Shown here: positions 3,085-21,702 of the stretch, in pieces | Layout of the letters: the number at the start of each line of letters is the position of its first letter | Numbering within the stretch: the stretch's first letter is position 1 | Assembly (NCBI GenBank): GCA_037137535.1 | Contig: JBAXKC010000042.1 | Coordinates: 1 to 21,702, forward strand | DNA from: a bacterium | GTDB taxonomy: Bacteria > Cyanobacteriota > Vampirovibrionia > Gastranaerophilales > JBAXKC01 | DNA: 21,702 bases | Direction: 5' to 3' | Made by a program: the position numbers and the translations under genes | The notes under the pieces: generated by a model | Databases searched by the model: none | The model's input: the letters and a program-made list of their open reading frames with translations, nothing else | Told to the model about the DNA's origin: nothing

Positions 3085-3105
3085 GTATTAAAGAGAAAGG
3101 TGTTT

Positions 3106-5139
3106 ATGAAGTTTATAAATAATTATAAAGTTGCAAAAAAAATTGTTGAACTTAATATTATAATGATTTCACTGCTGTTAATAGGTGGAACAATTAGTCT
3201 TTTATTTAATATTAAAATCAGTAATGATATGGAAAATTTTTATAATAAAAATTTAAGATCAGTAATGAGATTAAATATGACAAGATCTAATTCAAATGCT
3301 ATAAAAGCCGATTTGTTTGAGTTAACTGTACAAACAGATAAAGATGGAATTAAAGCTGCAATAAAAGATATAAATAAACGCAGAAAAGATATAGATAAAT
3401 TTATCGGTGAATACGAAAATAATAAATTAGATACTTATGAAAAAGAACAATTTCAACTTTATAAACAATCTCTTACTGACTATGATAATACTAGAAAAAA
3501 AATTATGGAACTTGCTGTTATAAGTAAAAGCGATGCGTTAAATTATCTATTATTGCACTTATCAGACTTAAATGATTCACAAAAATATCTGAGATCATTA
3601 GGTCAATATAGTGAAGCAGAGGCAGTTAAAACAAATAAACAGAATACAAATGATTCTAATGTTGCAAAAATTATTATTGCTCTAATTATTATAATTGCAA
3701 CAGTATTATCTGTTTTAATAGGATTATTTACATTTGGTTTAATAGTAAATCCGCTTGTCGAAATAAATGATAAAATGCAAAAAGTAGCAAATGGAAATAT
3801 TGCTAATGATGTTGAAGAAGGGCAATCTAAAATTGAAATTTTAAACCTGATTCAAAAATCATTTTACGCTTCACATAATATTATGATTGCATTTTTAGAC
3901 AAACTTTTCTCTATCTTGGAGCATGGTTTAGTCGTTAGAGATAAAACAAAACTTTCAATAGATGAATGTAAAGTGATAAAAAGATCAATTGATATTTCAT
4001 GTGATGAACAACAAAATATTTTAAGTTCAGTACAAGAAATTGCAGCTTCGATTAATGAGTCAGCTCAAGTAATAAGCGAAGACTCAAAAAAATGTATTAC
4101 ACTTACTGAATTTAGTGGCAATGTTACAAATTATGTAAAAGAGGGGCAAGGCAAAGCTGATAATATGTCGGTGAGTTTCAATCATCTTCAAAAATCCTTT
4201 CTAAATCTTGAAAACCAAATGATTGAATTGCAAAAAGACTCGGAATCCATAGGTAGTATTATAGAAATTATCAAAGGAATCGCCAATCAGACTAATTTAT
4301 TAGCATTAAATGCAGCTATAGAAGCGGCTAGAGCCGGTGAACAAGGTAAAGGTTTCGCAGTTGTTGCTGATGAAGTTAAACAATTAGCTGAAAAAACAAG
4401 TGAAATGACAGGTCAGGTTGAAGAGAAAGTTAAAGAAATACAACATATTTCTGCCTCAAATATTAAAGCCTCATCAGAAACTCTAATTTATCTTAAAGAA
4501 AACGAAACAAATTTTTGTGCTTTAAATGATAATCTAGGCTTAATCAGCAAACAAGTTATAAATATAGAAAAAATAATAACAGAAGTTAGTCATAGTTATC
4601 AGCGTTCTGCGGAAAGGGCTGATCAAATGAATTGTGCCGTTCAAAATACAGCTACTTCTGTTGAGAAAGTTACGCATCAATTTTCTGATATTGAAAATCA
4701 AGTGAATAATTTTATGCAATTACAGCAGGAGCTTCAAACTTTATCTATTCCACTTACAGATTTAGCAACAAATTTTAAGCCAATAGAAAAATGTTATTTC
4801 TTGGATTTAAGATTAGTTGATCATCATAATTGGGTTAAAACTCTTAGAAATATAATTGATTCTAAAAATCCAAATATAAGTTTACAATTAAATCATACTT
4901 TATGTAAATTTGGTAAGTGGTATTTTAACTATGTACCATCTAAAAACGAAAAAGTAATATTTGATAGAATTGATAAACCTCATCAATTAATTCATGCAAC
5001 AGGTAAAAAAATCATTGATGAAGTAAAGAAAGGTAATTTCACAGCAGCAGAAAATATTTTCCAAAATGAAACTTTGACCTATATGCACGAAATAGAAGGT
5101 TTATTTAAAGAATTAAAACAAATATTTATTCAGCAATAA
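3106..5139 (+). CDS. Methyl-accepting chemotaxis protein (TM, four-helix-bundle sensor, TM, HAMP-like, MCP signalling domain, C-terminal CZB)
   Basis: Signalling hairpin [38 protein letters not shown]; two TM helices; CZB motifs [15 protein letters not shown] and PHQLIH. Start moved from TTG 3025 to ATG 3106 because AAAGGTG lies at 3096-3102. Confidence 0.93.
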
Positions 5140-5156
5140 TCATTTTTTATATAAAT

Positions 5157-5190
5157 TATAGGAGAGTCTAAATAAATGGACTCTCCTATA
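5157..5190. terminator. Probable bidirectional terminator between the convergent MCP gene and nifS
   Basis: TATAGGAGAGTCTA / TGGACTCTCCTATA inverted repeat (one G-U pair) with AT-rich flanks. Confidence 0.75.
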
Positions 5191-5217
5191 TTATTTTATC
5201 GATTTTTTATAAAGAAA

Positions 5218-6432
5218 CTAGCTTTTTAATGTTTTAGATTCTTTAAGCTCTTTTAATTGTTTTTGGAATGGTGATATTTCATTAAGTTTTGCAATAACTT
5301 TAGGAACATTTTCAATGACATAATCAACTTCAGCTTCAGTTGTATATCTGCTTAAACTAAATCTTATACTGCCATGAATAGAGGTAAACGGTATGCCCAT
5401 CGCTCTTAATACATGACTTGGCTCAAGACTACCGCTTGTACAGGCTGAACCTGAACTGGCACATATACCTAGGTCACTTAGATGTAATAAAATCAGCTCA
5501 CCTTCAATGAATTCAAAACTGATATTGGTAGTATTAGGCACTCTGTTAATTTTTGAGCCATTAACTCTTGCATTAAATACTCGCTCTAATATTCCTTTTT
5601 CAAGTTTATCTCTTAAAGCTCTTATTCTTGTATTTTCATCATCAAGATAACTAATAGCTATTTCTGATGCTTTGCCAAGAGCTATGATACTTCCAACGTT
5701 TTCAGTACCGCCTCTTTTGCCTCTTTCCTGATGTCCGCCAATCATAAATGGAGGGAGCAATGTTCCTTTTTTAATATATAAAACACCAATACCTTTTGGC
5801 GCGTGAACTTTATGACCTGAAATGCTCAATAGGTCTATTTTAGTTTCTTTTACATTGATAGGAAGTTTTCCTGCCATTTGAACGGCATCAACAAAGAACT
5901 TTGTTGATGGACTTTTTTCTTTAATTATTTCAGCAATTTTTTCTACAGGGAAAATAACACCTGTTTCATTATTCGCCCACATTATAGAAACTAAAGCCGT
6001 TTCTTCTGTTATAGCTTCTTTTAGTTCTTCAAGATCAAGTTCACCTTCATTATTTACATTTAAGAAAGTAGTCTTATATCCTTTTTTCTCAAGCCATTTG
6101 TATATATTGGTTACGCAGGCATGCTCAACTTTAGTTGTTATTAGATGTTTTTTAGTCGGATTTGCTTCTAAAACCCCTCTAATTGCCATATTTGAGCTTT
6201 CAGTTCCACAACTTGTAAAGACAACTTCTTCGTGTGAAGCTGCTCCTAATAATTCAGCAACTTGATTTCTTGCTTTATAAATGAATTGACCGACTTTTCC
6301 GCCAAATTCGTGCATGCTGGAAGGATTCCCATAATTTTCTGTCAAAAACGGAATCATTTCTTCAACAGCTTCATCGCAAACTCTTGTTGTAGCATTATTA
6401 TCAAAATAAATTGGTCTTGTGATGTCATTCAT
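5218..6432 (-). CDS. nifS: Cysteine desulfurase NifS (group I, PLP-dependent)
   Basis: YFDNNATT, ANNETG, PLP-lysine motif SGHKVHAPKG, catalytic Cys motif SSGSACTSGSLEPSHVL; adjacent to nifU. Confidence 0.95.
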   Translation of the reverse strand: MNDITRPIYFDNNATTRVCDEAVEEMIPFLTENYGNPSSMHEFGGKVGQFIYKARNQVAELLGAASHEEVVFTSCGTESSNMAIRGVLEANPTKKHLITTKVEHACVTNIYKWLEKKGYKTTFLNVNNEGELDLEELKEAITEETALVSIMWANNETGVIFPVEKIAEIIKEKSPSTKFFVDAVQMAGKLPINVKETKIDLLSISGHKVHAPKGIGVLYIKKGTLLPPFMIGGHQERGKRGGTENVGSIIALGKASEIAISYLDDENTRIRALRDKLEKGILERVFNARVNGSKINRVPNTTNISFEFIEGELILLHLSDLGICASSGSACTSGSLEPSHVLRAMGIPFTSIHGSIRFSLSRYTTEAEVDYVIENVPKVIAKLNEISPFQKQLKELKESKTLKS

Positions 6433-6448
6433 TATATTTACCTACTAC

Positions 6449-7273
6449 TTACGCTTCTATAACTTCGATTTCAGGTCCTAAATGTTCTTTTAATGTCATT
6501 TCAACAAAGTTTTTAAGAGTTGAACTGCTACTTGGACAATGGCTGCAAGCTCCACGAAGTTTTACAAATATTTTATTATCTTCAACATCAACTAGTTCAA
6601 TATCACCGCCATCTTTTTGTAATTCAGGGGCAATATAATTCTCGATAATTTTATTTATTTGAACAATTAATTGAGTTTTAGTTAATTTAGGTTTTTTATC
6701 GGCAAGTTCTCTTTTGGTTATTTCATCGCCTAAAATTTCATGAATATCTGAAATGCACATTCCGCATCCGCCGCCTGCTTTACAGAAGTTTGTTATGTCT
6801 TCAAGAGAAGTAAGTTTATTTTCTTTTATTATTTCTCTTACTTTTTTCTCTGTTATGCTGAAGCATTTGCAAACAATTCTATCTTGATCAGTTTTTGCGA
6901 TTGGTGTTCCAAAATAATTTGATAATGCTGCTTCAAGTGCTTCATGTCCTAGTACGCTGCAATGCATTTTTTGATCAGGAAGACCGCCTAAAGCATCGGC
7001 TATATCCATATTTGTAATTTTTGCCGCATCTGCAATCGGCTTACCTATAATCATTTCGGTTAACATTCCTGCGCTTGCTACAGCAGAACCGCAACCAAAA
7101 GTTTGAAATTTTGCATCTTCAATTATACCGTCTTCACTTACTTTTAAATAAAGTTTCAACGCATCGCCACAAGCTAAACTCCCAACTTCACCAACAGCAT
7201 TGGCATCTTCAATTTCGCCAACATTTTTTGGATTTCTATATAAATCTTTGACCTTGTCAGTATATTCCCACAT
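6449..7273 (-). CDS. nifU: Three-domain Fe-S cluster scaffold NifU
   Basis: IscU-like domain (ACGD, FGCGSA, KMHCS), central BFD-like [2Fe-2S] domain (VCKCF...AGGGCGMC) and C-terminal Nfu domain (DGGDIELV...GACSHC). Confidence 0.95.
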   Translation of the reverse strand: MWEYTDKVKDLYRNPKNVGEIEDANAVGEVGSLACGDALKLYLKVSEDGIIEDAKFQTFGCGSAVASAGMLTEMIIGKPIADAAKITNMDIADALGGLPDQKMHCSVLGHEALEAALSNYFGTPIAKTDQDRIVCKCFSITEKKVREIIKENKLTSLEDITNFCKAGGGCGMCISDIHEILGDEITKRELADKKPKLTKTQLIVQINKIIENYIAPELQKDGGDIELVDVEDNKIFVKLRGACSHCPSSSSTLKNFVEMTLKEHLGPEIEVIEA

Positions 7274-7296
7274 ATTTATTTTCCTTTATAAAATAT

Positions 7297-7354
7297 TTAA
7301 ACTATACTATTTTTGTATACTTTAATTTTACTCTAAAATCTGAAAACATGTAAA
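7297..7354 (-). promoter_or_regulatory. Candidate sigma70 promoter of nifU-nifS with an overlapping Rrf2/IscR-like operator
   Basis: Minus strand TTTACA (7349-7354) - 18 bp - TAAAAT (7325-7330). Inverted repeat TTAAACTATAC-N7-GTATACTTTAA at 7297-7325 (one mismatch) covers the expected start site. Confidence 0.55.
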
Positions 7355-7544
7355 GCCCTAAATTTTATTCGTTTATATTTCTTGATATTAGCTGTAAAAC
7401 TTCTCACTAAATTATAGCAAGAGCATAAAGCACTTTAAAGTACACTAATCAACTATTAATTGCACTTGATTTTAGCTTTATTTAAAAGCTATACTTTTAT
7501 AAATAGTAAGCAATAAATTTAATTTAAAATAGATAAGTAAATTA

Positions 7545-9539
7545 ATGAAAAAAGAATTTAAAATACATTCTTCATATACTCCAGCAGGCGATCAGCCTAA
7601 AGCTATTGATGAGCTTGTAAGCGGACTTAATGCTAAGTTCACAAATCAGACATTACTCGGAGTTACAGGATCGGGTAAAACTTTTACCATTGCAAATGTT
7701 ATAGAAAAAGTACAACGACCTACACTTGTAATTGCTCATAACAAAACTCTTGCCGCTCAGTTATATAATGAGTTAAAAGAATTTTTTCCGGACAATTCAG
7801 TTGAATATTTTATAAGCTATTATGACTTTTATCAGCCGGAGGCTTATATTCCAAGAACTGATACTTTTATAGAAAAAACAGCAAGCATTAATGACGAAAT
7901 TGACAGATTAAGACATAGTACAACTCGAAGTTTATTTACAAGAAACGATGTGATTGTTGTAGCAAGTGTAAGTTGTATTTACGGCTTAGGAAGTCCAGAA
8001 AGTTATTTTAAAGGTTCTTTTAAAATTGAACTTGGCGATGTTATTGACAGGGATGATCTTTTAAGAGAATTGGTTAATATTCACTATGAAAGAAACGATA
8101 TAGAGCTAAAACGTGGATGTTTCAGAGCAAGAGGAGATGTTATTGAGCTTTACCCAGCTTATGAAACTATCGTAACTAAAATACATATGTTTGGCGACGA
8201 AATTGAAAAAATTTCAACAGTTAATCCTGTTACGGGTGAAATTATTGAGCTTCTTGAAGAAACAGTAATTTTTCCTGCTGTTCACTATTTGTCAGATACG
8301 GATGAAATAAAAGAAACCTGTGAATTAATAAAAGAGGAAATGATCGAAAGGGTAGATGAGTTACAAAGTCAGGATAGGCTTATAGAAGCTCAAAGAATAA
8401 AACAGCGGACTTTGCATGACCTTGAAATGATTAAAGAAGTCGGATATTGTAACGGAATTGAAAATTACTCAAGAATTATCGAAAGAAGAGCTCCAGGTAC
8501 TCCTGCCGAAACGCTTTTAAGCTATTTCAAAGAGGATTTTTTACTTGTTATTGATGAATCTCACGTTACATTACCTCAAATTAGAGCGATGTATAACGGA
8601 GATAGAGCAAGAAAAGACACTTTAATTGATTATGGTTTCAGATTACCTTGTGCTAGAGATAACAGACCGTTAAAATTTGATGAGTTTTGGGAAAAGACAG
8701 GTCAAAGAATTTTTGTTTCTGCTACTCCTGCTGACTTTGAACGTGAAAATTCTGAGCAGATAGTTGAACAAATAATCAGACCCACAGGGCTAATAGATCC
8801 TGAAATTGAAATAAGACCAACTGAAAATCAAGTTGATGATTTAATTGGCGAAATTAAAAAAAGAGCTGATAAAAAAGAACGTGTCTTAATCACTACTTTA
8901 ACTAAAAAAATGGCTGAAGATTTAACAGATTATTTTTTACAGCTTAGTATAAAAGTTCGTTATCTTCATAGTGATGTAAAATCTCTTGATAGAGTTGAAA
9001 TTCTTAGAGATTTAAGGTTAGGTGAATTTGACGTGCTTATTGGTGTAAATCTTTTAAGAGAAGGTTTGGATATACCTGAAGTTACTCTGGTTGCCATTAT
9101 GGATGCCGATAAAGAAGGCTTTTTGCGTTCAGAAACCAGCTTAATTCAGACAATAGGCAGAGCCGCCAGAAATTCACTAGGCAAAGTTATTATGTATGCT
9201 GATAAAATAACAGGAAGTATACAGCGAGCAACAGGGGAAACTGATAGAAGAAGGCTTATTCAGCTTGAGCATAATAAAATCAACAATATAACGCCAAAAA
9301 CTATAAAGAAAAGTATTTCTAATAACCTTTTAGAATTGGTTAATTCTTATAGAAGTATTGAGGACGTTATAGCCGAGCAAATGGCAGAAAATAAAGTTTC
9401 TTTGAAAGACTTGCCTAAACTTATTGATAAAATTGAAAAAGATATGCACTCTGCAGCTAAACTTCTTGATTTTGAAAAAGCAGCAGAATTGCGTGATAAA
9501 TTAAAAACATTGAGAGAAATGCAGAAGGCTAAAAAATAA
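7545..9539 (+). CDS. uvrB: Excinuclease ABC subunit B
   Basis: PAGDQP, Walker [20 protein letters not shown], beta-hairpin [22 protein letters not shown]-like motif [19 protein letters not shown], and C-terminal UVR domain [11 protein letters not shown]. Confidence 0.98.
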
Positions 9540-9544
9540 AGATA

Positions 9545-12500
9545 TTAAAGGTTTATTGGTAGCTCAATAGTAAAGGATGTTCCTTTGTTATTTTGACTTT
9601 CAAACCATATTTTACCTTTATGAGTTTCAATAATTTGTTTAGTAAGATATAGCCCAAGCCCAGAGCCAATTTTACGTTCAGTTGTCTTAGACATAGCATA
9701 TCTTTCAAATATTTTGTTTTTTAGTTCATCATCAATACCTGAACCATTGTCATGAATATAAATTCTTATATTATTGTCAGTTTTTGTTAATTTTATAAGT
9801 ATTTTTCCCTCTGATTTAACGTATGTAACTGCATTTTCTATTATTGTGAATATAGCTTTATGCATTTCTTTTGCATCAATTTCTATAATTGGTATATCAG
9901 AAAAATTTAGCTCGACATCTATGTTTTTTAATTCAATGGTCTCTTTTATCTCAAAAAGTACATCATCAATTATGGTTTTAATATTAGCTTTGCCCATAAG
10001 TAGGTTAACTTTTCCGGCTTCATAATTATAGCTATCAACGAGTTTATATAATAATTTATATAGACTTTCATTACTTCTCATTATTTCGTGGATTATATCT
10101 TTGTATTTTGACAGAGGGTGACCATCAGGTCTACTCAGGCAGAATTCTAGCGCTTTATGTTCACCAACTAATGGTACTCCAATATCATGAGCTAAAGTTG
10201 AAATAAAAGTATCTCTCATTTCTTCAAGCTCTATACGTTTCATTATTTCCCATAAAATTGGAACAACTGCCTCTGATATTAGATTAAGCAGAGAAAATTC
10301 GTCATAAGTCCAACTTCTTTCTTTGTTTGTACATAATATTGCTGTACCTAATAGCTTTGCTTTATCTGTGAATTTTGTAAATGGTTGGATTAGTGTGGCG
10401 TTAATATGTTGTAGATCTAAAAAAGTTATTCCTTCAACTTCATCGGGGAAATAATCATTTATATTATTTATTTCTATCGTTTCAATGTTTTTTATAGAAG
10501 TATTTAAAACATTGAAAAACAAATCAGGTATTTTAATATTTTGAAATTTAGAAAAATTCCGTTCACTATCTAATTCATATACAATTTTTAATTTATCACT
10601 TTTAAAGGGATAAAATTCAGCAAATAGAATTTTGTCTATATTAAATATACTCATGAGTTTTTCTGATAAATATTTATATGCTTCCTCTAAACTCGAAGTT
10701 AATTTGACATTAGTAATTATTTCTTTTAATAATCTTTCAGTTTCTGCATTTTTTTTGACTTTTTCATATAACTGTGACTGATAAATAGCAATTCCACACT
10801 GGTTTGCAATAATTCTTGCAAACTCTATATCTTCAGCTGTAAAAGTTTTTTCTGGCTCTGTATAGTGAATCACCATTACACCTAATAGTTTATTTAAATA
10901 AAAAATAGGCAATGCAAATAATGATTTTATGTCATACTTTGTTATATAGTTAGCAGTTACGCTATTTTCTAAATGGTTATTCTTTATATATTCATTAGTA
11001 TTTTGAATTATATTATCTTCTCCACTTAGTATTTTATTTATAAAAATAGGTGCATTTGCTTCAATATCTTCGCCTGTAATACTCTTTATCTGTTCAGTAG
11101 ATCTATATTCGTTAATTATAGGAATAAAAGTTTCAGTAATATTGTCATATTCAAGAATGAAGCATCGATCAGCATTAAATAAGTTCGCTGTTTCATTTAC
11201 TATAAGGTTTTTAATTTCATTAATTTCGACAGTGCTTCTAATAGCTACTACTACATTTCTAAAGATATTTTCTCTATCTGCTAACTCTTTTGTTTTTCTA
11301 TATAAGTCAGCCTGCTTTATTGTCATATATATTTGATTTGATACAGCTTTTAAAAGTTCAATATCATTTTTATTCCATTGTTTAATAGAGTCAAATTTTT
11401 GAATTAATAAAAAGCCCCAAGATTCATTGTTTTCTTTAAGTATAGGTGATGCAATAAGTGATTTTGCATTAATTGTTTTATAAAAATCTTTTATATAGTC
11501 AGGTATATCAGAATTAGCTATGTCTTCAATAATTAATAATTTATTTTCTTTAATTAATCTAGTCGAATAAAATTCACCTATTTTTTTATAAATTGTAAGA
11601 TACTTAAAGTTCTCAATTATTTCTTTTTTATTAATATCATCCAGGTATTCGCCCTTTATATCAAAGTTTTCGATGTTGTTAAGATTTGAATATTCTATGA
11701 CCATTACTCTCTCAACATTAAATAAATTAGCAAGTTTAGTGCAAATGATTTTTAGTAGCTCCTCTGTATCTAATGTAATTTTAGAGGTTTCAATTATGTC
11801 TCTTAATACTTTTTCTCGTCTTGCCTGTTCCCATATTAATTCATTTGATTCGTTTATTTTTTCTGTTAGTAATCCTATCTCATCACTTGATATAACAGGT
11901 ATTTCAAGCGGTTTTTCATCGGTTTTTATTTTTTCTATATGCTGTATAACAGTATCTATCGGCTTTGTAAATCTAAATGATAATAAATACTGAACAATTG
12001 TTGTTAAAAGAAAATATATAAGGAATAAAAAGGTGGAATAAAAAGGAAAATTTACCCCTGCTATTGTTGCACCTATCGGTATAAAAACCATATATGAAAT
12101 TATTAAAAATAATGATAAAAATGCTGCTAATTTTTGCCTTATATTCAATTTATAGTTATTAATGTCCTTTAGCCCAAAGAAAATAAAACTAAATCCTATA
12201 ATTTGAGCTAAATAATTAAATAAAGGATACAACGTTGTTGAATACCCTAGAATAAACATTATGGGCAGAAATCCAAGAATAAATAATCCAATGTTGAAAT
12301 TTGAATATATTTTTTTATTATCAGATATTCTTAAGTCAGCATAAATAAAGGCAGTTAATAAATAAAATGCTTCTTCTGCTATTTTACTAAGATAAAAATT
12401 TAATTCAATTTTATATATATATTCTCTAAATAAATCAAATAATAGAGGTACAAGTAATAAGTCAAAGAGAATTAGAAAAATATTTATACCGATAAAAAAC

Positions 12501-12949
12501 ATATATATGTTTTTACGGAATTTATTGTCTAAAGTATTTATTGTTTTTGGCATGTAAATTATAGTGGCAAAGAGAGCTAGTGCAGGAATAAAGTCTCCAA
12601 ATAAATAGGAAAAATTCTGTGAATCAAATAAATAATTACCGCCTATATTAATTCGACAAAAAGAAATAAAACTAATCATCTCAATAATTGAGTAACACAG
12701 AAAACTCCCTGCAATGATTACCATTTTTTTATTTTTATTTAGGCTATATTCTTTATTGGCTTTTAAGAAAATCGCAAAGGAGATAATTGCAATAATTAAA
12801 TTGAAACTAGCTTTATTTAATACGCCAATTGGTAAATAATACAGCACAAAAATTGATGGTACAAATTGAACTATCCAGCCATAAATCAACACAAAGGCAA
12901 GAAATATATATAAAATTATTAAAATTTTTGATTGAGATGTTTTATTCAT
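9545..12949 (-). CDS. Membrane sensor histidine kinase (multi-TM MASE3-like region, HAMP, 3 GAF, HisKA, HATPase)
   Basis: About 330 aa hydrophobic N-terminus; HAMP (KPID...DEIGLL); three GAF-like repeats; H-box TLAHDIGVPL, N-box ENAVTY, G1 DNGSGI, G2 GSGLGL. ATG 12949 (MNKT...) preferred over GTG 12967 because the paralog also begins with xNKT. Confidence 0.92.
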   Translation of the reverse strand: MNKTSQSKILIILYIFLAFVLIYGWIVQFVPSIFVLYYLPIGVLNKASFNLIIAIISFAIFLKANKEYSLNKNKKMVIIAGSFLCYSIIEMISFISFCRINIGGNYLFDSQNFSYLFGDFIPALALFATIIYMPKTINTLDNKFRKNIYMFFIGINIFLILFDLLLVPLLFDLFREYIYKIELNFYLSKIAEEAFYLLTAFIYADLRISDNKKIYSNFNIGLFILGFLPIMFILGYSTTLYPLFNYLAQIIGFSFIFFGLKDINNYKLNIRQKLAAFLSLFLIISYMVFIPIGATIAGVNFPFYSTFLFLIYFLLTTIVQYLLSFRFTKPIDTVIQHIEKIKTDEKPLEIPVISSDEIGLLTEKINESNELIWEQARREKVLRDIIETSKITLDTEELLKIICTKLANLFNVERVMVIEYSNLNNIENFDIKGEYLDDINKKEIIENFKYLTIYKKIGEFYSTRLIKENKLLIIEDIANSDIPDYIKDFYKTINAKSLIASPILKENNESWGFLLIQKFDSIKQWNKNDIELLKAVSNQIYMTIKQADLYRKTKELADRENIFRNVVVAIRSTVEINEIKNLIVNETANLFNADRCFILEYDNITETFIPIINEYRSTEQIKSITGEDIEANAPIFINKILSGEDNIIQNTNEYIKNNHLENSVTANYITKYDIKSLFALPIFYLNKLLGVMVIHYTEPEKTFTAEDIEFARIIANQCGIAIYQSQLYEKVKKNAETERLLKEIITNVKLTSSLEEAYKYLSEKLMSIFNIDKILFAEFYPFKSDKLKIVYELDSERNFSKFQNIKIPDLFFNVLNTSIKNIETIEINNINDYFPDEVEGITFLDLQHINATLIQPFTKFTDKAKLLGTAILCTNKERSWTYDEFSLLNLISEAVVPILWEIMKRIELEEMRDTFISTLAHDIGVPLVGEHKALEFCLSRPDGHPLSKYKDIIHEIMRSNESLYKLLYKLVDSYNYEAGKVNLLMGKANIKTIIDDVLFEIKETIELKNIDVELNFSDIPIIEIDAKEMHKAIFTIIENAVTYVKSEGKILIKLTKTDNNIRIYIHDNGSGIDDELKNKIFERYAMSKTTERKIGSGLGLYLTKQIIETHKGKIWFESQNNKGTSFTIELPINL

Positions 12950-12960
12950 ATTGCTGCCTT

Positions 12961-13962
12961 TCACCAAATAACTTTTGAACTGTCAAGGAGCTCTGGTGGA
13001 ATATTTAATTTGAGCTGTACTGCTCTTTTTGCATTTATATAAATAACACCGTCCTGCGTGGGTTTAATTTTAAAACTAGTCGGTTTCCTTCCTTTTAGAA
13101 TTCCAATTGCCATAACTGCAGCATTATAACCTTGAGAGTTACCTTTTAATGCAACAGCTGTTAAGCCGCCATCGTCTACAAAAAACGGCCACAAGCCTAT
13201 TTCTGGTAAATCAGAATTTGAAGTTAACATATTTATCATGTCTTTTTCATTTATATGATTACCATTATTATCTTTTACTGTGAAATATAAAATAACCATT
13301 ATGGCATCTACTTTATTTTGGTAAGATTTAATTAAATTTTTCCATTCATCAAAAGAGTTTGATTGGTGAATTTCTGTAATATTAACATGCAGTTTAGCTT
13401 CTTTAAGTTGTTTTATCATTATAGAAGAAGTTTCTGATTCATCACTTATTACTGCAATTTTATGTATATTGTTATCTATAAGCCTAAGTACCCTTGAAGC
13501 ATCATCAAAACGATGTCTTTCTAGAACACCTGTAATATTGGACTTTGGTAAACCATAGGTTTCAGGTTCGCCATTTACTCCGCAAAATACAAAGTTATAT
13601 TTTGTATTTTGCATTGGTAATGCAACATATAATAAGGCATTTTCATCAGAGATTATTATAATATCAGGGTTGTGTTTTAAAATATAACTTTTTACAATTT
13701 GTGCAGAGCTTAAAATTTGTTTTTTGCTTGATTTTCTTTTAGTATCCATATATATAGATTTAAAATGTATAGGCATATTTTTATCTTTAAAAGCCGATAG
13801 TATACCTGATTCAATATCTTTACTCCAACTAAATGTTTCATGATAAGAGGCAACATATAAAACATTATAAATTCGAGTATTTTTTTGGGGTAGTTTAAAA
13901 ATATAAATACTAAAACTGAGCAATATTATTATAATTATAAAAATTATTGATTTTTTAAACAT
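12961..13962 (-). CDS. Extracytoplasmic solute-binding protein (ABC_sub_bind-like, periplasmic binding protein type I)
   Basis: N-terminal signal or anchor MFKKSIIFIIIIILLSFSIYIF; motifs SYHETFSW, VFCGVN, NITGVLE, ILKGRKP and C-terminal IYINAKRAVQLKLNIPPELL. ATG 13962 preferred over GTG 14004. Confidence 0.8.
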   Translation of the reverse strand: MFKKSIIFIIIIILLSFSIYIFKLPQKNTRIYNVLYVASYHETFSWSKDIESGILSAFKDKNMPIHFKSIYMDTKRKSSKKQILSSAQIVKSYILKHNPDIIIISDENALLYVALPMQNTKYNFVFCGVNGEPETYGLPKSNITGVLERHRFDDASRVLRLIDNNIHKIAVISDESETSSIMIKQLKEAKLHVNITEIHQSNSFDEWKNLIKSYQNKVDAIMVILYFTVKDNNGNHINEKDMINMLTSNSDLPEIGLWPFFVDDGGLTAVALKGNSQGYNAAVMAIGILKGRKPTSFKIKPTQDGVIYINAKRAVQLKLNIPPELLDSSKVIW

Positions 13963-14191
13963 AAGCTCAACCCTATTTTGTATGAATAGCTTTTTAAGCC
14001 ACATTACAGCTTATCATATTTTAATCTATTAAAATAGATTTGCTATTCACTATCATTCTATAGAATTTATGTTTATGGCTGTATAACAAGCTAATAGCTG
14101 TTTTTATAAAACTACACATATTTTGAATTTGTTTAATTAGAAGTAGTATAAGAATAAAAATACTTATAAAAATTATAATTTTGTAAAAAAG

Positions 14192-14677
14192 TTAAATTGT
14201 ATCGTCAATAATAAATTCTGTTTGACCTTCAATTTGCTGATTTTCTATTTTTTTATACATAAATGCAGCCGCCATTCCACTTAGTGCATTAAATAATGCA
14301 AGCATTGGGGCTATAGCTGTTAATACTAGAATTATTGAAATAAATATATAAGAAAAAACCATATTAGGTCCATGCCAAGTGTTAGTTTTAAGGGCAGGAC
14401 TGATGAAAAACCAATAGATTATGTTAAAAGGTAGATAAATTAAAGAAGCGGCAATCGTAGCACAAAATCCTGATACAGCGCCCATAATCGCACCATCTTT
14501 TACTGTTATGATACCTATAAAAGAATAATGCTTTAAATACCAGACAATTCCAACTCCAATTAACATAAAAGCAAGAAAACCGAGTACATTTAAAAATGGA
14601 ATTAATAAAATAATACCTAAAGCAGCTCCTAAAATTGCGCCTAAAACAGCAGACGGTTTTATTAATGTGTTCATCAT
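14192..14677 (-). CDS. Small Gly-rich integral membrane protein of unknown function (about 4 TM)
   Basis: 161-aa ORF with AAGGA upstream; hydrophobic helices with GxxxG repeats (LGAILGAALG, DGAIMGAVSG). Confidence 0.8.
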   Translation of the reverse strand: MMNTLIKPSAVLGAILGAALGIILLIPFLNVLGFLAFMLIGVGIVWYLKHYSFIGIITVKDGAIMGAVSGFCATIAASLIYLPFNIIYWFFISPALKTNTWHGPNMVFSYIFISIILVLTAIAPMLALFNALSGMAAAFMYKKIENQQIEGQTEFIIDDTI

Positions 14678-14800
14678 ATCTTAATAATTCCTTATCAAAT
14701 AAAAGTTTTAAAATGCTTACGATTATATTATACTAAAATTACCTGTAAAAAGCAGTTATTTGATATTTACTATGTACTTTAAATTGTAAAATGGTGAAAA

Positions 14801-16293: not shown

Positions 16294-19200
16294 GTGAATA
16301 AAACTATAAGAATTTATCTTTTAATAGCAATGATTATAGCTGGTATGTTTTTTTTCACTGGCTTTATTTCCCAAACTTATGCATTTAATTTTATATTTAT
16401 TTATAAGACTCATGTATTATTAGAGATATTAACCGTAATTTTATTACTGTTGATTTTTATTAAAGTCAACTCATTATTTAATAAAAGTCATAATGCTAAA
16501 GCAGCTTTAATTGCGGGAGGTTTTCTTTCAGGATTTTTATTAGAACTCCACCATTTAATTGCAGCAAAAAGTTTTCCTTATGACGTTTTATCTTTAAATA
16601 ATGCCTTGGATAATCCTGATTTATTTTATATTCTAATAGGCAGATTGTTTATCCCAATATGCTTATTTAGTTCTATTTTTTTTGATTTTAAACAAAATGA
16701 AACAGAACAAAAAAAATTAAGAAATAAAATATATATTGGGTTTCTTTTTTCTACATTTATAATTATTTTTTTAGATTACATGTTTAATCATTATCTTTTA
16801 TCTTTTGTAAAGCCACATATTGGCAAAATGGTAATATTCAGTAACTCTTTAGAAGTAATAAATAATGCAATATATCTACTGATAGCTTTTATTTTTCTTG
16901 ATATGAAAATTGAAAAAAAGCTAAATATAGCCAGCTTTTTAATCGCAGGACTTTTAGTCTTCGGGACAGAACAGTTATTTTTTTTAGTTCCTTTGACACA
17001 AAATGGGATTTTCGGATTTTTTACACATATAGTAAAAATAATAGGTTTTATACTAATATATTTAGGTATTGAAGATGCTATAAAACCATCTTTTTATTTA
17101 TTTAAACATAAATTAATTTCCTATTTATCATTGTTTTTAATCATGTCCTATTTTATTTTTGTTTCATTAACTTCCACTCTATTTAACTTGGTTTTTCCTG
17201 CGTTTTCATCTTTTTTATTTCTTGAGTCTTTTATATTTTCAATAATTATTCAGTACAAACTTCTTGAAAATTTTGTAAATCCTATAGAAAATATTATTTT
17301 AGGCATTAGCAAATATAAACCCGAAGAGGAATTCAAAAAAATTCAAATAGAATCTAATGATGAAATAGGTTTATTGGCCGAAGATATAAATTATTTAATA
17401 GAATCAAACCAAAAATATATTAAAGAATTAATTTTGAATCAGAAAAAAGAAATAAAAAATTCTGCAAAACAAGAATTACTAAGAAAATTATCCAATCAAA
17501 TAAGAAGCGAACTAGATATAAATTTAATTAAGCAGAGGTTTGTTTTTGAATATGGGAAAATATTAGGAGCTCAAAGGTCTTTTTTCTGTGAATACGATTT
17601 ATATAAAAAAAACTTTTTGCCTCCTGATGAATATTCAGAATATTTAGATAACCCAACAGTTTTAAGCATAAAAAAAGCAGATTCGGCTTTTTTAAATCAA
17701 TTTCTTTCACTTTTTAATGAAATTAGTTTAAAGAAAAAAATCGTAATATTAAATTCTGAAGATTACATAAAAGAATTTAATTTTAAAAACAAAGCCGAAG
17801 AATTGAATTTTAAAAAATATAAAATTTCTTCTGCGATCATTCTTCCCTTAATTTTTAAAAACCAATTATACGGAGCTTATTATTATGATTTTGACAGAGA
17901 GAATGCTTTTGAAGAAGACGAAATGAAATTTACCGAACTTCTTATTGAACAAGCAGCAATAGCAATACATCAGAGCAAATTATTAATTTATTTTAAAAAA
18001 ATTGCTGAAAGAGAGGCATTTTTAAAACTTATAACTAATAAAATTTTAATGGCAAGTAGCATTGAAGAATCAATGTACAGCCTTTCAAAAGAAATAGCAG
18101 AGTTATTTAATGCTGAAAAAACTTGTCTTAGAATGTTTGATCCTGTTTCCAAGGGTTTTATGGATTCCATTGCAGAATATAACACAAGCAAAGACCATTC
18201 ATGTGCGTGTTGCAAAATTAAAGACTATAAAATCTTCGATGATTTTATTAAAGAAGAACTGTTTTCTAATAACCAGTCAATCATTATAGATAATATAGAC
18301 AAATCTGATTTTTCCGAAAAAATCAAAGCAATTTTTAAAAAAATTAATTTTTTTTCGGGGATAATATTTCCTATCAGATATTTAGATAATCCAATAGCTA
18401 TAATCATTATTTCAAACTCAGCAGAAAATAAAAATTTTAAAAAAGATAATTATGAGCTGTTAATACCTCTTTCTGAACAAATTGGCATATCAGCCAGACT
18501 GTTTCAGTTGAATGAAAATTTAACAAATTCTTTAAATGCTGAAAAATTAATAAAAGATCTAATTATTGAGGCAAGGGAATTAGAAGACCCTACGGTAATA
18601 ATAAATACTCTTCTGCAAAGAATGAAAGCATTGTTTCATTCTGATAAAGCATTAACTTTATCAATAGATAAAGCTAATAAAATTAGTATTAATAACCTTA
18701 TTGATGATACCTATACTGATAAATTATTTTTTGACGATTCAGTGGATGCCAGATATATAATTAGTTATTTTAAGAAGCATCCGCAAGAAGCACTAACCAT
18801 AAACAATGTTGAGTTGGAAATTGATAATATAAGTTTTAAAGATTATTTAATTAAAAATGATATTAAAGCATTCATTGCATACAGGATTAATATTTCTTCT
18901 AATCAGAAAGAAGTTCAGCCTACAGTAAAAAATATAATAATGATTTGCTCTAATACCACTAAAAATTGGAAATCTGAAGACATAGAAACTTTTAAAATGA
19001 TTGTAAACTCAGGAGAAATTATTTTATTTCAAATAATGCAAAAAATTGAAATAGAAGATACTAAAAAAACTTTTTTAGCGACATTAACTCATGATTTGAG
19101 AAGTCCGATATATGCAGAACAAAAAGCACTTGAATTTATTATTTCAAGAAAGGGCGAAACTCCATTAAGTGATTTTTGCGAATATCTTCAAGATATTTAC

Positions 19201-19728
19201 AATACAAATGAAGAACTGTTGAGAATAGTCAATAATATCTTAATGGTTTATCATTATGAATCAGGTAAAAATCTTCTTAATACAGAACCTAATGATATAA
19301 GGGAAATTATTGAATATTCCGTACGTTCGATGCAGCCACTTGCATTAGCTCAAAATTCTTATATAGACATTAATTTAGAAGAAAAAATGCCTTTTGTTTT
19401 GGCAAATAAAGATGAAATAATTAGAGTAATAATTAATTTGATCAGCAATGCAATAAAACATAATCACTCTGAAACAAATATAATTGTTTCAGCAAGAAAA
19501 GCAAAAGAATATATTGAGATTTCGATAAAAGACAACGGTAAGGGCATACCAGATGATGCCAGAGATAAAATATTTCAAAGGTATCCAACTCAAAAACGTC
19601 AAATAGGGACTGGACTTGGATTATATTTATCTAAACAAATAGTTGAAGCTCATAATGGTAAAATTTGGTTTGAAACAAAAGAAGGAGAAGGAACAACGTT
19701 TTGTTTTACACTGCCGGTTTTAAATTAA
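16294..19728 (+). CDS. Membrane sensor histidine kinase (MASE3-like TM domain, HAMP, 3 GAF, HisKA, HATPase), upstream of kaiBC
   Basis: GTG start; HVLLEI...GGFL...LELHH...FP pattern in the TM region; HAMP (NPIE...DEIGLLA); three GAF-like repeats; H-box TLTHDLRSP, N-box NLISNAIKH, DNGKGI, GTGLGL. Confidence 0.92.
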   Translation: MNKTIRIYLLIAMIIAGMFFFTGFISQTYAFNFIFIYKTHVLLEILTVILLLLIFIKVNSLFNKSHNAKAALIAGGFLSGFLLELHHLIAAKSFPYDVLSLNNALDNPDLFYILIGRLFIPICLFSSIFFDFKQNETEQKKLRNKIYIGFLFSTFIIIFLDYMFNHYLLSFVKPHIGKMVIFSNSLEVINNAIYLLIAFIFLDMKIEKKLNIASFLIAGLLVFGTEQLFFLVPLTQNGIFGFFTHIVKIIGFILIYLGIEDAIKPSFYLFKHKLISYLSLFLIMSYFIFVSLTSTLFNLVFPAFSSFLFLESFIFSIIIQYKLLENFVNPIENIILGISKYKPEEEFKKIQIESNDEIGLLAEDINYLIESNQKYIKELILNQKKEIKNSAKQELLRKLSNQIRSELDINLIKQRFVFEYGKILGAQRSFFCEYDLYKKNFLPPDEYSEYLDNPTVLSIKKADSAFLNQFLSLFNEISLKKKIVILNSEDYIKEFNFKNKAEELNFKKYKISSAIILPLIFKNQLYGAYYYDFDRENAFEEDEMKFTELLIEQAAIAIHQSKLLIYFKKIAEREAFLKLITNKILMASSIEESMYSLSKEIAELFNAEKTCLRMFDPVSKGFMDSIAEYNTSKDHSCACCKIKDYKIFDDFIKEELFSNNQSIIIDNIDKSDFSEKIKAIFKKINFFSGIIFPIRYLDNPIAIIIISNSAENKNFKKDNYELLIPLSEQIGISARLFQLNENLTNSLNAEKLIKDLIIEARELEDPTVIINTLLQRMKALFHSDKALTLSIDKANKISINNLIDDTYTDKLFFDDSVDARYIISYFKKHPQEALTINNVELEIDNISFKDYLIKNDIKAFIAYRINISSNQKEVQPTVKNIIMICSNTTKNWKSEDIETFKMIVNSGEIILFQIMQKIEIEDTKKTFLATLTHDLRSPIYAEQKALEFIISRKGETPLSDFCEYLQDIYNTNEELLRIVNNILMVYHYESGKNLLNTEPNDIREIIEYSVRSMQPLALAQNSYIDINLEEKMPFVLANKDEIIRVIINLISNAIKHNHSETNIIVSARKAKEYIEISIKDNGKGIPDDARDKIFQRYPTQKRQIGTGLGLYLSKQIVEAHNGKIWFETKEGEGTTFCFTLPVLN

Positions 19729-19819
19729 GTTTGAAATAAATTATCGTATTAGGCTATACAAATAAAGCAGATACTAAGAGAAAATAGAGTTATATAAAAT
19801 TATCCGAATAGGTACTTAT

Positions 19820-20095
19820 ATGGAAAATAAATATATTTTTAAGCTCTACGTATATGGGCATTCAAGTGAATGCGATTTGGCTTTGTATAATTTAAAAAAT
19901 ATTTGCAAAAAGCATCTTAACAATAATTATGAAATTCAGTTAATTGATATAGAAGAATATCCTAATCAATCAGAAGAAGCGAGGCTTATTGCTTTGCCTA
20001 CACTGATCAAGGAATCGCCTTCCCCTATAAGAAGAATTATAGGCAATTTGGAAGATGAAGAGAAAGTTCTTTTAAAATTGGGCTTAAAATTTTGA
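19820..20095 (+). CDS. kaiB: KaiB family protein
   Basis: YIFKLYVYG, IDI...P, IALPTLIK..PSPIRRIIGNL...EKVL align without gaps to cyanobacterial KaiB (LKLYVAG...[22 protein letters not shown]). Confidence 0.95.
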   Translation: MENKYIFKLYVYGHSSECDLALYNLKNICKKHLNNNYEIQLIDIEEYPNQSEEARLIALPTLIKESPSPIRRIIGNLEDEEKVLLKLGLKF

Positions 20096-20120
20096 TTTTT
20101 TTTCAATAAGGAGTAATTTA

Positions 20121-21623
20121 ATGAAAAAATCTGATTCTAAAAAATATATTAATGAAATAAAAAAAATAAAAACACATATAGATGGCTTTGATGAAATATC
20201 TAGGGGGGGTATCCCGGAACATAGAAGCACCTTAATTGCAGGATCATCAGGGAGTGGAAAAACAATATTTTCAATACAATTTTTGGTAAACGGAATCAAT
20301 TACGAAAAGGAAAATGCTGTTTTTATTACTTTTGAAGAAAATCCTGACAGTATTTGCCAAAATATGCTTTCATTCAATTGGGATATAAAAAAGCTTATAG
20401 ATGAAAAAAAGTTTATATTAATAAACGCTTCGTCTTTGTATGATATTGATACTGTTGGCGATTATAATCTTTCCGGATTAGTTACAAGGATAGAACAGGC
20501 AATAAAATCTATTGATGCAAAAAGAATAGTTATAGATTCTTTAGGTTCACTGTTATTTCAGTTTAATAATGACCGAATAATAAGAAGAGAAGTCTTTATG
20601 TTAGCAGATAGACTTAAAGAATTCGGAGTAACTGTTTTAATGACAGCAGAAAGAACAAAAGAATATGGGGATGTTTCGCGTTACGGAATAGAAGAATTTG
20701 TAACAGACAATGTAATAATATTAAGGAATACGCTTGAAGAAGAAAAGAGAAGACGCACAATAGAGATACTAAAATACAGAGGAGCTTTTCACCAGAAAGG
20801 TGAGTATCCATATACAATACTTCCCGGTAAAGGTGTAATAGGAACCGCTTTATGTTCTATTGACTTAAATCAAGCTGTATCAAATGAAAGAATTTCATCC
20901 GGCTCTGAAAATATTGATAAAATGTGTAAAGGCGGTTTATTAAAAGGGTCAATAGTTTTAATCTCGGGTGCAACAGGAACAGGAAAAACTCTGCTGGTGA
21001 CTGAATTTATGAAAGGCGGAGCAAAAGCAGGAGAAAAAAGCATTCTTTTCGCTTTTGAAGAAAGTAAAGATCAAATTTTAAGAAATGCTATGGGTTGGAA
21101 TATTGACTATGAAAAAATGCAAAAAGACGGTTTGCTCAAAATAATAGCCTTATATCCCGAAACCATGAACCTTGAAGAACATTTAATAGAAATCAAACGT
21201 GAAATTGAAGAGTTTCAACCCTCGAGAATTGCAATAGACAGTCTTTCTGCATTAGAAAGAATTTGTACATCAAAAAGTATAAAAGAATTTGTTATCGGGC
21301 TTACAGCATATATAAAACAGAAACAAATAAGTACTATGATCACTGCTACTGCACCAACAATCATTGGAGCAAGTACAATAACCACCGCTCATATATCTAC
21401 GATAACAGATACAATTATTTTATTAAGATATTTAGAATATTTTGGAACAGTGAAAAGAGGTATGACTATTTTAAAAATGCGTGGCTCTGATCATGATAAG
21501 AGCATCAGAGAATTTACTATAGATGAAAATGGAATGAATCTAATGGGACCATTTAGAAATGTACATGGAATTTTAACGGGATTTCCAAGAGAGAGAAGCA
21601 ATCCTGAGTGCGAATCACTATAA
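20121..21623 (+). CDS. kaiC: Double-domain KaiC ATPase/autokinase
   Basis: RBS AAGGAG; two Walker A motifs (GSSGSGKT, GATGTGKT); catalytic EE pairs (FEEN, FEES); RYGIEEFVTDNVIILRN; phosphosite motif HISTITDTII; KMRGSDHDKSIREF. Confidence 0.97.
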   Translation: MKKSDSKKYINEIKKIKTHIDGFDEISRGGIPEHRSTLIAGSSGSGKTIFSIQFLVNGINYEKENAVFITFEENPDSICQNMLSFNWDIKKLIDEKKFILINASSLYDIDTVGDYNLSGLVTRIEQAIKSIDAKRIVIDSLGSLLFQFNNDRIIRREVFMLADRLKEFGVTVLMTAERTKEYGDVSRYGIEEFVTDNVIILRNTLEEEKRRRTIEILKYRGAFHQKGEYPYTILPGKGVIGTALCSIDLNQAVSNERISSGSENIDKMCKGGLLKGSIVLISGATGTGKTLLVTEFMKGGAKAGEKSILFAFEESKDQILRNAMGWNIDYEKMQKDGLLKIIALYPETMNLEEHLIEIKREIEEFQPSRIAIDSLSALERICTSKSIKEFVIGLTAYIKQKQISTMITATAPTIIGASTITTAHISTITDTIILLRYLEYFGTVKRGMTILKMRGSDHDKSIREFTIDENGMNLMGPFRNVHGILTGFPRERSNPECESL

Positions 21624-21702
21624 GTGTTTCCCATAATTTGGCCAAAAAAAAGAATCCATAAATAATTTTGTGTAAACCTCCGAGAAAATGTATAGTAGAA
21701 AC

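What the first reader, a model, noticed from the sequence alone, without database searches (positions are those of the whole stretch)
16294..21623. Kinase-kaiB-kaiC locus: candidate KaiA-less clock or timer in a probable non-photosynthetic cyanobacterial relative
Seen: kaiB-kaiC in the cyanobacterial order, but the position held by kaiA in kaiABC is taken by a co-oriented 1144-aa membrane kinase (91-bp gap, no terminator hairpin seen). The kinase has no KaiB-like SasA N-terminal domain and no CikA-like receiver domain. KaiC has both ATPase domains intact and a phosphosite segment HISTITDTII identical to S. elongatus (T421/S426/T427 = T426/S431/T432). Established: KaiBC-only systems in Prochlorococcus and Rhodobacter behave as hourglass timers. 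Inference: a KaiBC timer or stress switch whose input or output runs through a MASE3-like/GAF kinase. If the host is Vampirovibrionia, this bears on whether kaiBC predates the photosynthetic cyanobacteria or was acquired laterally.
Basis: partly seen in the sequence, partly recalled or inferred. Interest (0 to 1): 0.82.

Follow-up and report, generated by a model that had tools for sequence, protein, structure and literature searches.

The report
Clock genes in non-photosynthetic cyanobacterial relative
A non-photosynthetic relative of cyanobacteria carries the clock genes kaiB and kaiC beside a sensor kinase, with no kaiA found in its genome; the sequence suggests a stripped-down KaiC3-type switch that likely lost its KaiA partner and is predicted not to keep time on its own.

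Summary
The locus is real: a 1144-aa MASE3-GAF histidine kinase, kaiB and an intact two-domain kaiC in a 100%-complete Gastranaerophilales (Vampirovibrionia) genome. Neither KaiA1, KaiA3 nor SasA was found there; RpaA-like and RpaB regulators were. KaiC is KaiC3-type, not the cyanobacterial clock KaiC1 (19 of 27 diagnostic columns KaiC3, 0 KaiC1). It has three of five residues tied to arrhythmic ancestral KaiC and lacks the C-terminal tail that tracks KaiA3 in 47 of 49 genomes. The quoted phosphosites occur in almost all KaiC3-type proteins. Kinase-kaiB-kaiC recurs with orthologous kinases in a second family, but there the kinase has no membrane domain; kaiC was found in 4 of 401 genomes of the order. 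Other Vampirovibrionia carry full kaiA3-kaiB3-kaiC3 sets. Kinases beside kaiBC are already known in other bacteria. Best reading: a KaiA3B3C3 module that lost KaiA3 and likely works as an externally reset switch read by a native kinase. All four KaiBs carry a Cys at the thioredoxin active-site position (4 of 209 KaiBs), a possible redox input. Trees could not decide between vertical and lateral origin. I found no report of kai genes in this class.

The parts
16294..19728 (+). Sensor histidine kinase, 1144 aa: membrane MASE3 region, HAMP-like linker (seen by eye; Pfam HAMP is called in relatives only), three GAF repeats (first called by Pfam, second by homology to the L007 orthologue, third inferred), HisKA, HATPase. 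Member of a Gastranaerophilales GAF-kinase family; orthologue of the kai-linked kinases of family f4.
16408..17070 (+). MASE3 membrane domain (residues 39-259); absent from the 775-779-aa kai-linked orthologues
19090..19092 (+). Phospho-acceptor His933 (THDLRSPIYAEQKALE helix, shared with paralogues on C33, C37, C9 and unlike the SasA helix)
19729..19819 (+). 91-bp kinase-kaiB gap without terminator-like hairpin; co-transcription not shown (gap 110-195 bp in L007-L009)
19820..20095 (+). kaiB, 91 aa, divergent; modelled in the fold-switched thioredoxin-like state; Lys86 replaces the usual Gly
19862..19873 (+). KaiB S15-x-x-C18 motif; Cys18 found in 4 of 209 KaiBs, all four kai-linked Gastranaerophilales ones; lies at the position of the thioredoxin CxxC (register inferred from aligned ranges)
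20121..21623 (+). kaiC, 500 aa, KaiC3-type, both ATPase domains intact; P235, E389, R436 as in arrhythmic ancestral KaiC-beta; S43 and T195 not beta-like
21381..21401 (+). Phosphosite segment T421 ... S426 T427 (= T426/S431/T432 of KaiC1)
21555..21623 (+). A-loop and short C-terminal tail lacking the R-L-x-x-L/M-F motif that KaiA3-bearing KaiC3 proteins carry, the KaiC1 tail and the KaiC2 coiled coil

Best explanation
This is a KaiC3-type kaiB-kaiC pair, next to an orthologous native GAF kinase in two Gastranaerophilales families, that likely descends from a KaiA3-KaiB3-KaiC3 module which lost KaiA3, and is predicted to work as an externally reset switch likely read out by the kinase rather than as a self-sustained clock. 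Shown: gene order, intact catalytic residues, no KaiA1/KaiA3/SasA found, KaiC3-type residues, loss of the tail, orthology of the kinases. Inferred steps: (1) KaiC hexamer hydrolyses ATP and autophosphorylates at S426/T427 without KaiA, with a loose A-loop (R436) and weak CI-CII coupling (E389). (2) KaiB binds the CI ring in its thioredoxin-like state and damps ATPase, so the state follows ATP/ADP, growth phase or redox, possibly through KaiB Cys18. (3) The state of KaiBC tunes the GAF2-GAF3-HisKA part of the kinase. (4) The kinase passes phosphate to NarL-type regulators shared with its paralogues, not to RpaA. The MASE3 region is a lineage-specific extra input.
For: KaiC matches KaiC3 at 19 and KaiC1 at 0 of 27 diagnostic columns; 54% mean identity to cyanobacterial KaiC3, 49% to KaiC1. 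Best PDB hit is ancestral KaiC-beta, 8ZN5; P235, E389 and R436 are residues tied to its arrhythmicity, and Q394E makes S. elongatus KaiC arrhythmic (PMC12081879 sections 7-8). No KaiA1 and no KaiA3 by a profile that finds held-out KaiA3 at about E 1e-39. Tail motif and KaiA3 co-occur: 31 both, 16 neither, 2 tail only, 0 KaiA3 only among 49 genomes. Where kaiA3 is linked it often lies directly upstream of kaiB3, the slot the kinase holds here (L054, L058, L102). Kai-linked kinases form one clade (94; 99 with two unnamed proteins). The two families are not sisters in the UvrB+RpoB tree (95), so the link looks old. Published: KaiC3 autophosphorylates without KaiA-7942 (PMC5520375, passages); its ATPase is temperature dependent and lowered by KaiB3 (10.1101/700500, passages); Pseudomonas KaiC binds its neighbouring kinase through a PAS domain (10.1101/2022.01.26.477890, section 21). 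The H-box helix is nearly the same as that of the C9 paralogue, which has a NarL-like receiver gene directly downstream.
Against: E389 and R436 are also in all 11 cyanobacterial KaiC3 examined, and KaiC3 cycles weakly when KaiA3 is present (PMC11372060, passages), so these residues alone do not exclude rhythm. In a Synechocystis kaiA3 mutant KaiC3 is mostly dephosphorylated (same paper), so KaiA-free phosphorylation may be weak. S43 and T195 are not beta-like. Trees leave the position of this KaiC open. Monophyly of families f1+f4 is not rejected (p-AU 0.127), and only two families carry the locus. The tail motif was chosen by eye after seeing the tails, and kin are not independent (about six separate tail-less lineages). 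No binding, co-transcription or activity was shown. The receiver assignment rests on helix similarity and recalled specificity rules.
Confidence: 0.58

Rival explanations
1. Vertical relic: the Gastranaerophilales KaiBC descends from the common ancestor of Vampirovibrionia and photosynthetic cyanobacteria (sister to KaiC1, or branching before the KaiC1/KaiC3 split) and is a living pre-clock KaiC.
For: Under the C20-PMSF model the clade falls outside the KaiC3 crown (SH-aLRT 83 and 94). Without the KaiC2 outgroup it groups with KaiC1 and P0009 against the crown (97/84). A clade with KaiC1 is not rejected (p-AU 0.568), nor is monophyly of all Vampirovibrionia KaiC3 (p-AU 0.313). The carriers may span the base of the order. 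RpaA/RpaB are ancestral in the class (PMC3787301, passages).
Against: LG+G4 with 104 rows nests it inside the KaiC3 radiation, and a clade with all KaiC3-types is also not rejected (p-AU 0.456). SR4 recoding pulls the KaiC2 outgroup into the clade, a sign of long-branch attraction; the clade is compositionally biased (FYMINK 0.33 vs 0.26). It shares 7 of 102 KaiC1-typical columns against 2-6 for six other KaiC3 clades. Found in 4 of 401 genomes of the order. Gloeobacteria lack kai genes (10.1101/2021.02.18.431691, passages). KaiC1 and KaiC3 both have KaiA partners, which makes loss the simpler account.
Confidence: 0.14
2. The kinase is only a long-standing neighbour. KaiBC acts on other targets (for instance on RpaA through another kinase) or has no signalling output.
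For: The kinase belongs to an expanded host family: 31 kinase-domain hits in this genome, several with the same build, 72 relatives in the protein database. The gap grows to 110-195 bp in the relatives. It sits upstream, whereas kai-linked kinases elsewhere are mostly PAS kinases downstream of kaiC (15 of 19 KaiC3-type loci in other Vampirovibrionia).
Against: All other flanking genes differ between the window and L007-L009 while the kinase stays. Among 61 family members the kai-linked ones form one clade.
Confidence: 0.16
3. A day-length hourglass timer as in Rhodobacter or Prochlorococcus, reset each day by swings in substrate, oxygen or ATP/ADP in surface fresh water.
For: Intact phosphosites and KaiB; best sequence holder is a freshwater metagenome (one study, possibly the source itself). 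The Rhodobacter KaiBC timer is reset by ATP/ADP (PMC10076222, passages).
Against: No coiled-coil tail of the Rhodobacter type and no KaiC1 identity. No reaction centre or phytochrome PHY domain found in the four carriers. KaiC-epsilon sets, the ancestor of this group, were arrhythmic (PMC12081879 section 7). Pseudomonas KaiC follows culture age, not the day (10.1101/2022.01.26.477890, abstract).
Confidence: 0.12

Closest known systems
KaiA3-KaiB3-KaiC3 of Synechocystis sp. PCC 6803 (Koebler et al. 2024, PMC11372060; Wiegard et al., 10.1101/700500)
   Same: KaiC3-type sequence, ST phosphosites, E389/R436 states, kaiB-kaiC order, no coiled-coil tail.
   Different: No KaiA3 in the genome, no KaiA3-associated tail, no KaiC1 system, divergent KaiB with Cys18, a native GAF kinase in the kaiA3 slot, non-photosynthetic host.
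Reconstructed ancestral KaiC-beta (PDB 8ZN5; Mukaiyama et al. 2025, PMC12081879)
   Same: Best solved-structure hit (612 bits vs 530 for S. elongatus KaiC); shares P235, E389, R436.
   Different: S43 and T195 differ from beta; beta is a reconstruction, and the likeness is shared by KaiC3-type proteins in general.
kaiBC next to a histidine kinase in non-cyanobacteria (De Luca et al. 2011, PMC3164672; Rhodobacter kaiC-kaiB-HWE kinase; Aquisphaera plasmid kinase-kaiB-kaiC; Anaerolineae L010)
   Same: KaiA-less kaiBC with an adjacent kinase; the same kinase-kaiB-kaiC order in L123 and L010.
   Different: Here the kinase is a host-family tandem-GAF kinase, not a PAS kinase or PAS-rich hybrid; the host is the sister class of photosynthetic cyanobacteria.
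KaiBC hourglass of Rhodobacter sphaeroides (PMC10076222) and Prochlorococcus
   Same: No KaiA.
   Different: Rhodobacter KaiC is KaiC2 (about 36% identity) with a coiled-coil tail; Prochlorococcus KaiC is KaiC1 with SasA.
KaiABC-SasA/CikA-RpaA clock of Synechococcus elongatus
   Same: Catalytic residues and phosphosites; RpaA-like and RpaB genes in the genome.
   Different: No KaiA, no SasA, no KaiA-binding tail, Q394 to E and Q441 to R.

Membership tests
KaiC3-type KaiC | Two intact ATPase domains with ST phosphosites and R-linker | tested here: met
KaiC3-type KaiC | KaiC3 rather than KaiC1 or KaiC2 states at diagnostic columns; no coiled-coil tail | tested here: met
   19 of 27 KaiC3, 0 KaiC1, 8 other; tail 23 aa vs about 100 in KaiC2
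KaiC3-type KaiC | Branches inside the KaiC3 clade | tested here: inconclusive
   inside under LG+G4, outside the crown under PMSF and LG+F+R4; no AU test rejected
KaiA3B3C3 oscillator | KaiA3 (receiver + KaiA-like domain) in the genome | tested here: not met
   best E 3.2 in six-frame search of G000; 0 of 4 carriers, control G474 positive
KaiA3B3C3 oscillator | KaiC3 tail motif that co-occurs with KaiA3 | tested here: not met
   (motif defined here, not a published criterion)
KaiA1B1C1 circadian clock | kaiA present | tested here: not met
   PF07688: 0 hits, control S. elongatus positive
KaiA1B1C1 circadian clock | Q394, Q441 and KaiA-binding tail | tested here: not met
   E389, R436, short tail
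KaiA1B1C1 circadian clock | SasA output kinase | tested here: not met
   one PF07689 hit only; NF006800 over cut-off in 2 of 5 genomes, both cyanobacteria
KaiA1B1C1 circadian clock | CikA input/output kinase | not tested
   no genome-wide CikA search; the linked kinase has no receiver domain
KaiA1B1C1 circadian clock | Self-sustained, temperature-compensated 24-h cycle | not testable with these tools
   needs purified proteins
Rhodobacter-type KaiBC hourglass | KaiC2 with coiled-coil dodecamer tail | tested here: not met
Rhodobacter-type KaiBC hourglass | Phosphorylation reset by ATP/ADP with KaiB | not testable with these tools
   needs in vitro assay
KaiC with cognate histidine kinase (Pseudomonas type) | Conserved linkage to one kinase orthologue | tested here: met
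   4 of 4 carriers; one clade
KaiC with cognate histidine kinase (Pseudomonas type) | Physical interaction of KaiC and kinase | not testable with these tools
   needs pull-down or two-hybrid assay
Thioredoxin-fold thiol sensor (KaiB SxxC) | Cys at the CxxC position of a thioredoxin fold | tested here: inconclusive
   structural ranges 1-91 vs 18-108 of E. coli thioredoxin give offset 17 (C32/C35 numbering recalled); profile alignment only 4.7% probability and offset 16 downstream

The most novel reading that the evidence does not exclude
The last common ancestor of Gastranaerophilales carried a KaiBC module inherited from the ancestor shared with photosynthetic cyanobacteria. It survives in free-living families as a KaiA-free, pre-clock switch whose KaiB has a thioredoxin-type active-site cysteine, reads redox or oxygen state, and signals through a dedicated GAF kinase: a living proxy for the non-rhythmic ancestor of the circadian clock.
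Probability: 0.12. Interest if true: 0.87.

Novelty: new variant of a known kind. Interest (0 to 1): 0.52.

Why it matters
Published genomes of the non-photosynthetic sister class of cyanobacteria are described as having the clock regulators RpaA and RpaB without SasA; I found no report of kai genes there. Here the class carries KaiC3-type systems in two forms: complete KaiA3B3C3 sets and KaiA-less, tail-less ones. That gives natural test cases for what KaiBC does without KaiA, for whether the KaiC3 tail is the KaiA3 docking site, and for the unknown KaiC3 output kinase. All three proteins can be expressed and assayed. If the vertical reading held, it would date kaiBC before oxygenic photosynthesis in this phylum; the present data do not show that.

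Tried and rejected
Complex prediction of KaiC + KaiB + kinase GAF2-GAF3-HisKA: score 0.00, no answer, no evidence either way. Careful mixture-model trees did not finish; quick trees are quoted instead. Three AU tests on KaiC rejected nothing. RNA: three contigs of run X6 lie on kaiC and none on the kinase or kaiB, but the control stretch 1-14700 holds 18 such contigs; contigs show neither strand, level nor a shared transcript, and DNA carry-over is not excluded. Runs X4 and X5 hold only small shares and were not used for habitat. KaiB fold state: both AlphaFold2 models are fold-switched, but the method is reported to be unreliable for fold switchers (search listing), so I do not claim KaiB is locked. 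KaiB-thioredoxin profile alignment was not significant. Kinase as RpaA kinase: H-box helix unlike two SasA proteins; rejected as best reading. Kinase as light sensor: no PHY domain in four carriers, and Cys clusters in the GAFs are at different places in the window and in L007-L009. MASE3 as the conserved input: rejected. Promoter scan is at chance level (40 vs 37.5). The metagenome scan gave no further locus of this clade (15 loci, best 55%). Earlier-finding look-ups by place and words gave nothing relevant. Rows dropped before trees: 27 of 90 locus KaiCs, a further 41, and a 40-row subset.
Full report
Observation. The window is all of contig C42 of a 2.95-Mb genome rated 100% complete, 2% contaminated. 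KaiC keeps both P-loop lysines, both glutamate pairs and T421/S426/T427. The kinase has MASE3, GAF, HisKA and HATPase domains, an intact H933 and no KaiB-like or receiver domain. No terminator-like site lies in the 91-bp gap.

Host. The closest KaiCs in named records (68-69%) are in loci L007-L009, titled Gastranaerophilales; the same proteins occur in same-order genomes G003, G011 and G018. UvrB from the window itself branches inside this order (99), so the contig is not a contaminant. No reaction-centre gene or phytochrome PHY domain was found in 0 of 4 carriers. The best holder of the DNA is a freshwater metagenome, possibly the source itself.

What is missing. PF07688 (KaiA) found nothing in G000. 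KaiA3 escapes that model, so I built a profile from 17 KaiA3 C-terminal domains; its motifs match Sll0485 as printed in the supplement of PMC11372060. It finds held-out KaiA3 at about E 1e-39 and some KaiA1 weakly, but nothing in G000 (best E 3.2) or in G003, G011, G018. There is one KaiB domain and no SasA. RpaB passes its cut-off and an RpaA-like regulator is present; the latter is in 15 of 15 genomes tested, with or without kai genes. CikA was not searched. The assembly has 81 contigs, so absence is 'not found'.

Distribution. KaiC was found in 4 of 401 genomes of the order, KaiB in the same 4 of 121: G000 (family f1) and 3 of 3 genomes of f4; 0 of 367 in the large family f3. In all four a kinase lies directly upstream of kaiB while the other neighbours differ. 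The f4 kinase is a soluble 775-779-aa protein, 41% identical over GAF-GAF-HisKA-HATPase, with no MASE3. These kinases form one clade within a host-specific family (94; 99 with P0254 and P0255 among 61 rows); named members are Melainabacteria, Gastranaerophilales or UBA9579. In a UvrB+RpoB tree f1 groups with f2, f3, f8 and f9 rather than f4 (95), though f1+f4 is not rejected (p-AU 0.127). The link therefore likely goes back to near the base of the order, with later losses. In a class sample, 42 of 301 genomes matched; 21 others hold a near-full-length KaiC at 48-54% identity (20 in f12, 1 in f18). KaiA3 was found in 9 of 21 f12 genomes and in G474. 15 of 19 such loci have a kinase directly after kaiC, PAS-type in all those scanned, and four lie beside bacteriophytochrome genes.

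Type of KaiC. At 27 columns that separate KaiC1 from KaiC3-type proteins the clade has the KaiC3 state at 19, the KaiC1 state at 0. The best solved relative is reconstructed KaiC-beta, 8ZN5. PMC12081879 (sections 7, 8) ties its arrhythmicity to P42, A195, P235, E389 and R436; this protein has P235, E389 and R436 but S43 and T195. E389 and R436 are general KaiC3 features (11 of 11 cyanobacterial KaiC3), as are the phosphosites, so neither set decides rhythm by itself. The tail is more telling. A motif R-[LIY]-x-x-[LMIV]-F after the A-loop goes with KaiA3 in the genome: 31 both, 16 neither, 2 tail only, 0 KaiA3 only, of 49. I chose the motif by eye and the genomes are related; about six separate lineages lack both. 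All four Gastranaerophilales proteins lack both. That this tail is the KaiA3 docking site is my inference from the KaiA1-tail interaction (PMC5520375, passages).

Origin. LG+G4 nests the clade in the KaiC3 radiation. C20-PMSF quick trees and an LG+F+R4 tree without outgroup put it outside the KaiC3 crown, near KaiC1. SR4 recoding draws the outgroup into it. AU tests rejected none of: with KaiC1 (0.568), all Vampirovibrionia (0.313), with all KaiC3-types (0.456). It shares 7 of 102 KaiC1-typical columns, against 2-6 for six other KaiC3 clades. The vertical-or-lateral question is open; an old acquisition followed by KaiA3 loss is the simpler account.

KaiB. It is divergent (under NCBIfam cut-offs; nearest non-clade relatives about 50-54%). 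Position 18 is Cys in 4 of 209 KaiBs, exactly the four kai-linked Gastranaerophilales ones, giving S-x-x-C where most have T-P-x-S. The model overlays thioredoxins end to end with offset 17, which would put S15/C18 on C32/C35 (numbering recalled). Profile alignment does not confirm the register. A thiol input is a hypothesis only; that SxxC motifs can be redox active is recalled, with search listings only.

Mechanism. Likely a KaiA-free KaiB3C3 switch: KaiC turns over ATP and phosphorylates itself, KaiB binding damps it, cell energy or redox state resets it, and the linked kinase reads it out to NarL-type receivers. The kinase's H-box helix matches paralogues C33, C37 and C9, not SasA, and C9 has a NarL-like receiver directly downstream. 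Precedents: KaiC3 phosphorylates without KaiA-7942 (PMC5520375), has temperature-dependent, KaiB-lowered ATPase and an unknown output (10.1101/700500), and Pseudomonas KaiC binds its neighbouring kinase (10.1101/2022.01.26.477890). Against: KaiC3 is mostly dephosphorylated in a kaiA3 mutant (PMC11372060). No activity, binding or shared transcript was shown here.

What is known. A kinase beside kaiBC is described for most non-cyanobacterial kaiBC clusters (PMC3164672, passages), and the same order occurs in an Aquisphaera plasmid and in Anaerolineae locus L010, whose genome has no KaiA3. For this class, PMC3787301, PMC4040986 and PMC5877343 (passages) report RpaA/RpaB, and the first also notes the lack of SasA; the passages report no kai genes. 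Full-text searches for kaiC with Melainabacteria or Vampirovibrionia, Gastranaerophilales with circadian, Melainabacteria/circadian/kaiABC, and Obscuribacter/Vampirovibrio/Sericytochromatia with kaiB/kaiC showed none. Supplements of PMC10076222, PMC12081879 and PMC10808063 have no such names; two picture PDFs were unreadable. In PMC11372060 the 2 of 21 'Melainabact' hits I saw are lineage strings of cyanobacteria. Subscription papers and bioRxiv supplements were not searched. Other papers seen: PMC8113500 (passages, section 12), 10.1101/2021.02.18.431691 (passages), 10.64898/2026.04.01.715469 (first fifth), PMC10076222, PMC10808063 and PMC13421787 (passages).

Verdict. Real and conserved, a new variant of a known kind. 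The host class, the paired loss of KaiA3 and tail, the orthologous kinase and the KaiB cysteine make it worth a bench test. Interest 0.52.

Noticed in passing
L054 (G474), L053, L055, L056, L058, L059, L062, L065, L067, L071: Other Vampirovibrionia families carry complete kaiA3-kaiB3-kaiC3 sets, mostly with a PAS kinase after kaiC; four f12 loci (L058, L059, L067, L071) lie beside bacteriophytochrome-type genes. I found no report of KaiA3 in this class.
   Followed up: partly
KaiC3-type proteins of 49 genomes: The C-terminal motif R-[LIY]-x-x-[LMIV]-F tracks KaiA3 in 47 of 49 genomes; a candidate KaiA3 docking site and a quick marker for KaiA3 dependence.
   Followed up: partly
window 21648-21702: About 55 bp at the contig end recur at the ends of nine other contigs and once inside C1; likely a collapsed mobile or repeated element 25 bp after the kaiC stop.
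   Followed up: partly
window 9545-14004 (-): A second MASE3-like/GAF kinase (1140 aa, 28% identical to the kai-linked one) overlaps a gene for an ABC-type substrate-binding protein, a likely periplasmic sensor pair.
   Followed up: no
window 18196-18213 and L007 6647-6664: Cys clusters in the GAF repeats (CACC in the window, CxCxxC in L007-L009) sit at different positions; possible metal or redox sites gained separately.
   Followed up: no
G000:C2:33687-34400 (L197) and C32 (L187): RpaA-like and RpaB regulators without SasA; the RpaA-like gene lies about 1.6 kb from a 1370-aa hybrid kinase on the same strand.
   Followed up: partly
window 374-2862: Two overlapping ORFs (448 and 380 aa) with hydrophobic segments and no Pfam match.
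   Followed up: no
window 3025-7273: Chemoreceptor with 4HB sensor and C-terminal CZB domain, followed by a nifS-nifU pair on the other strand.
   Followed up: no
L007 3596-4897: A regulator with four GntR-type helix-turn-helix repeats lies upstream of the kai-linked kinase in all three f4 loci.
   Followed up: no
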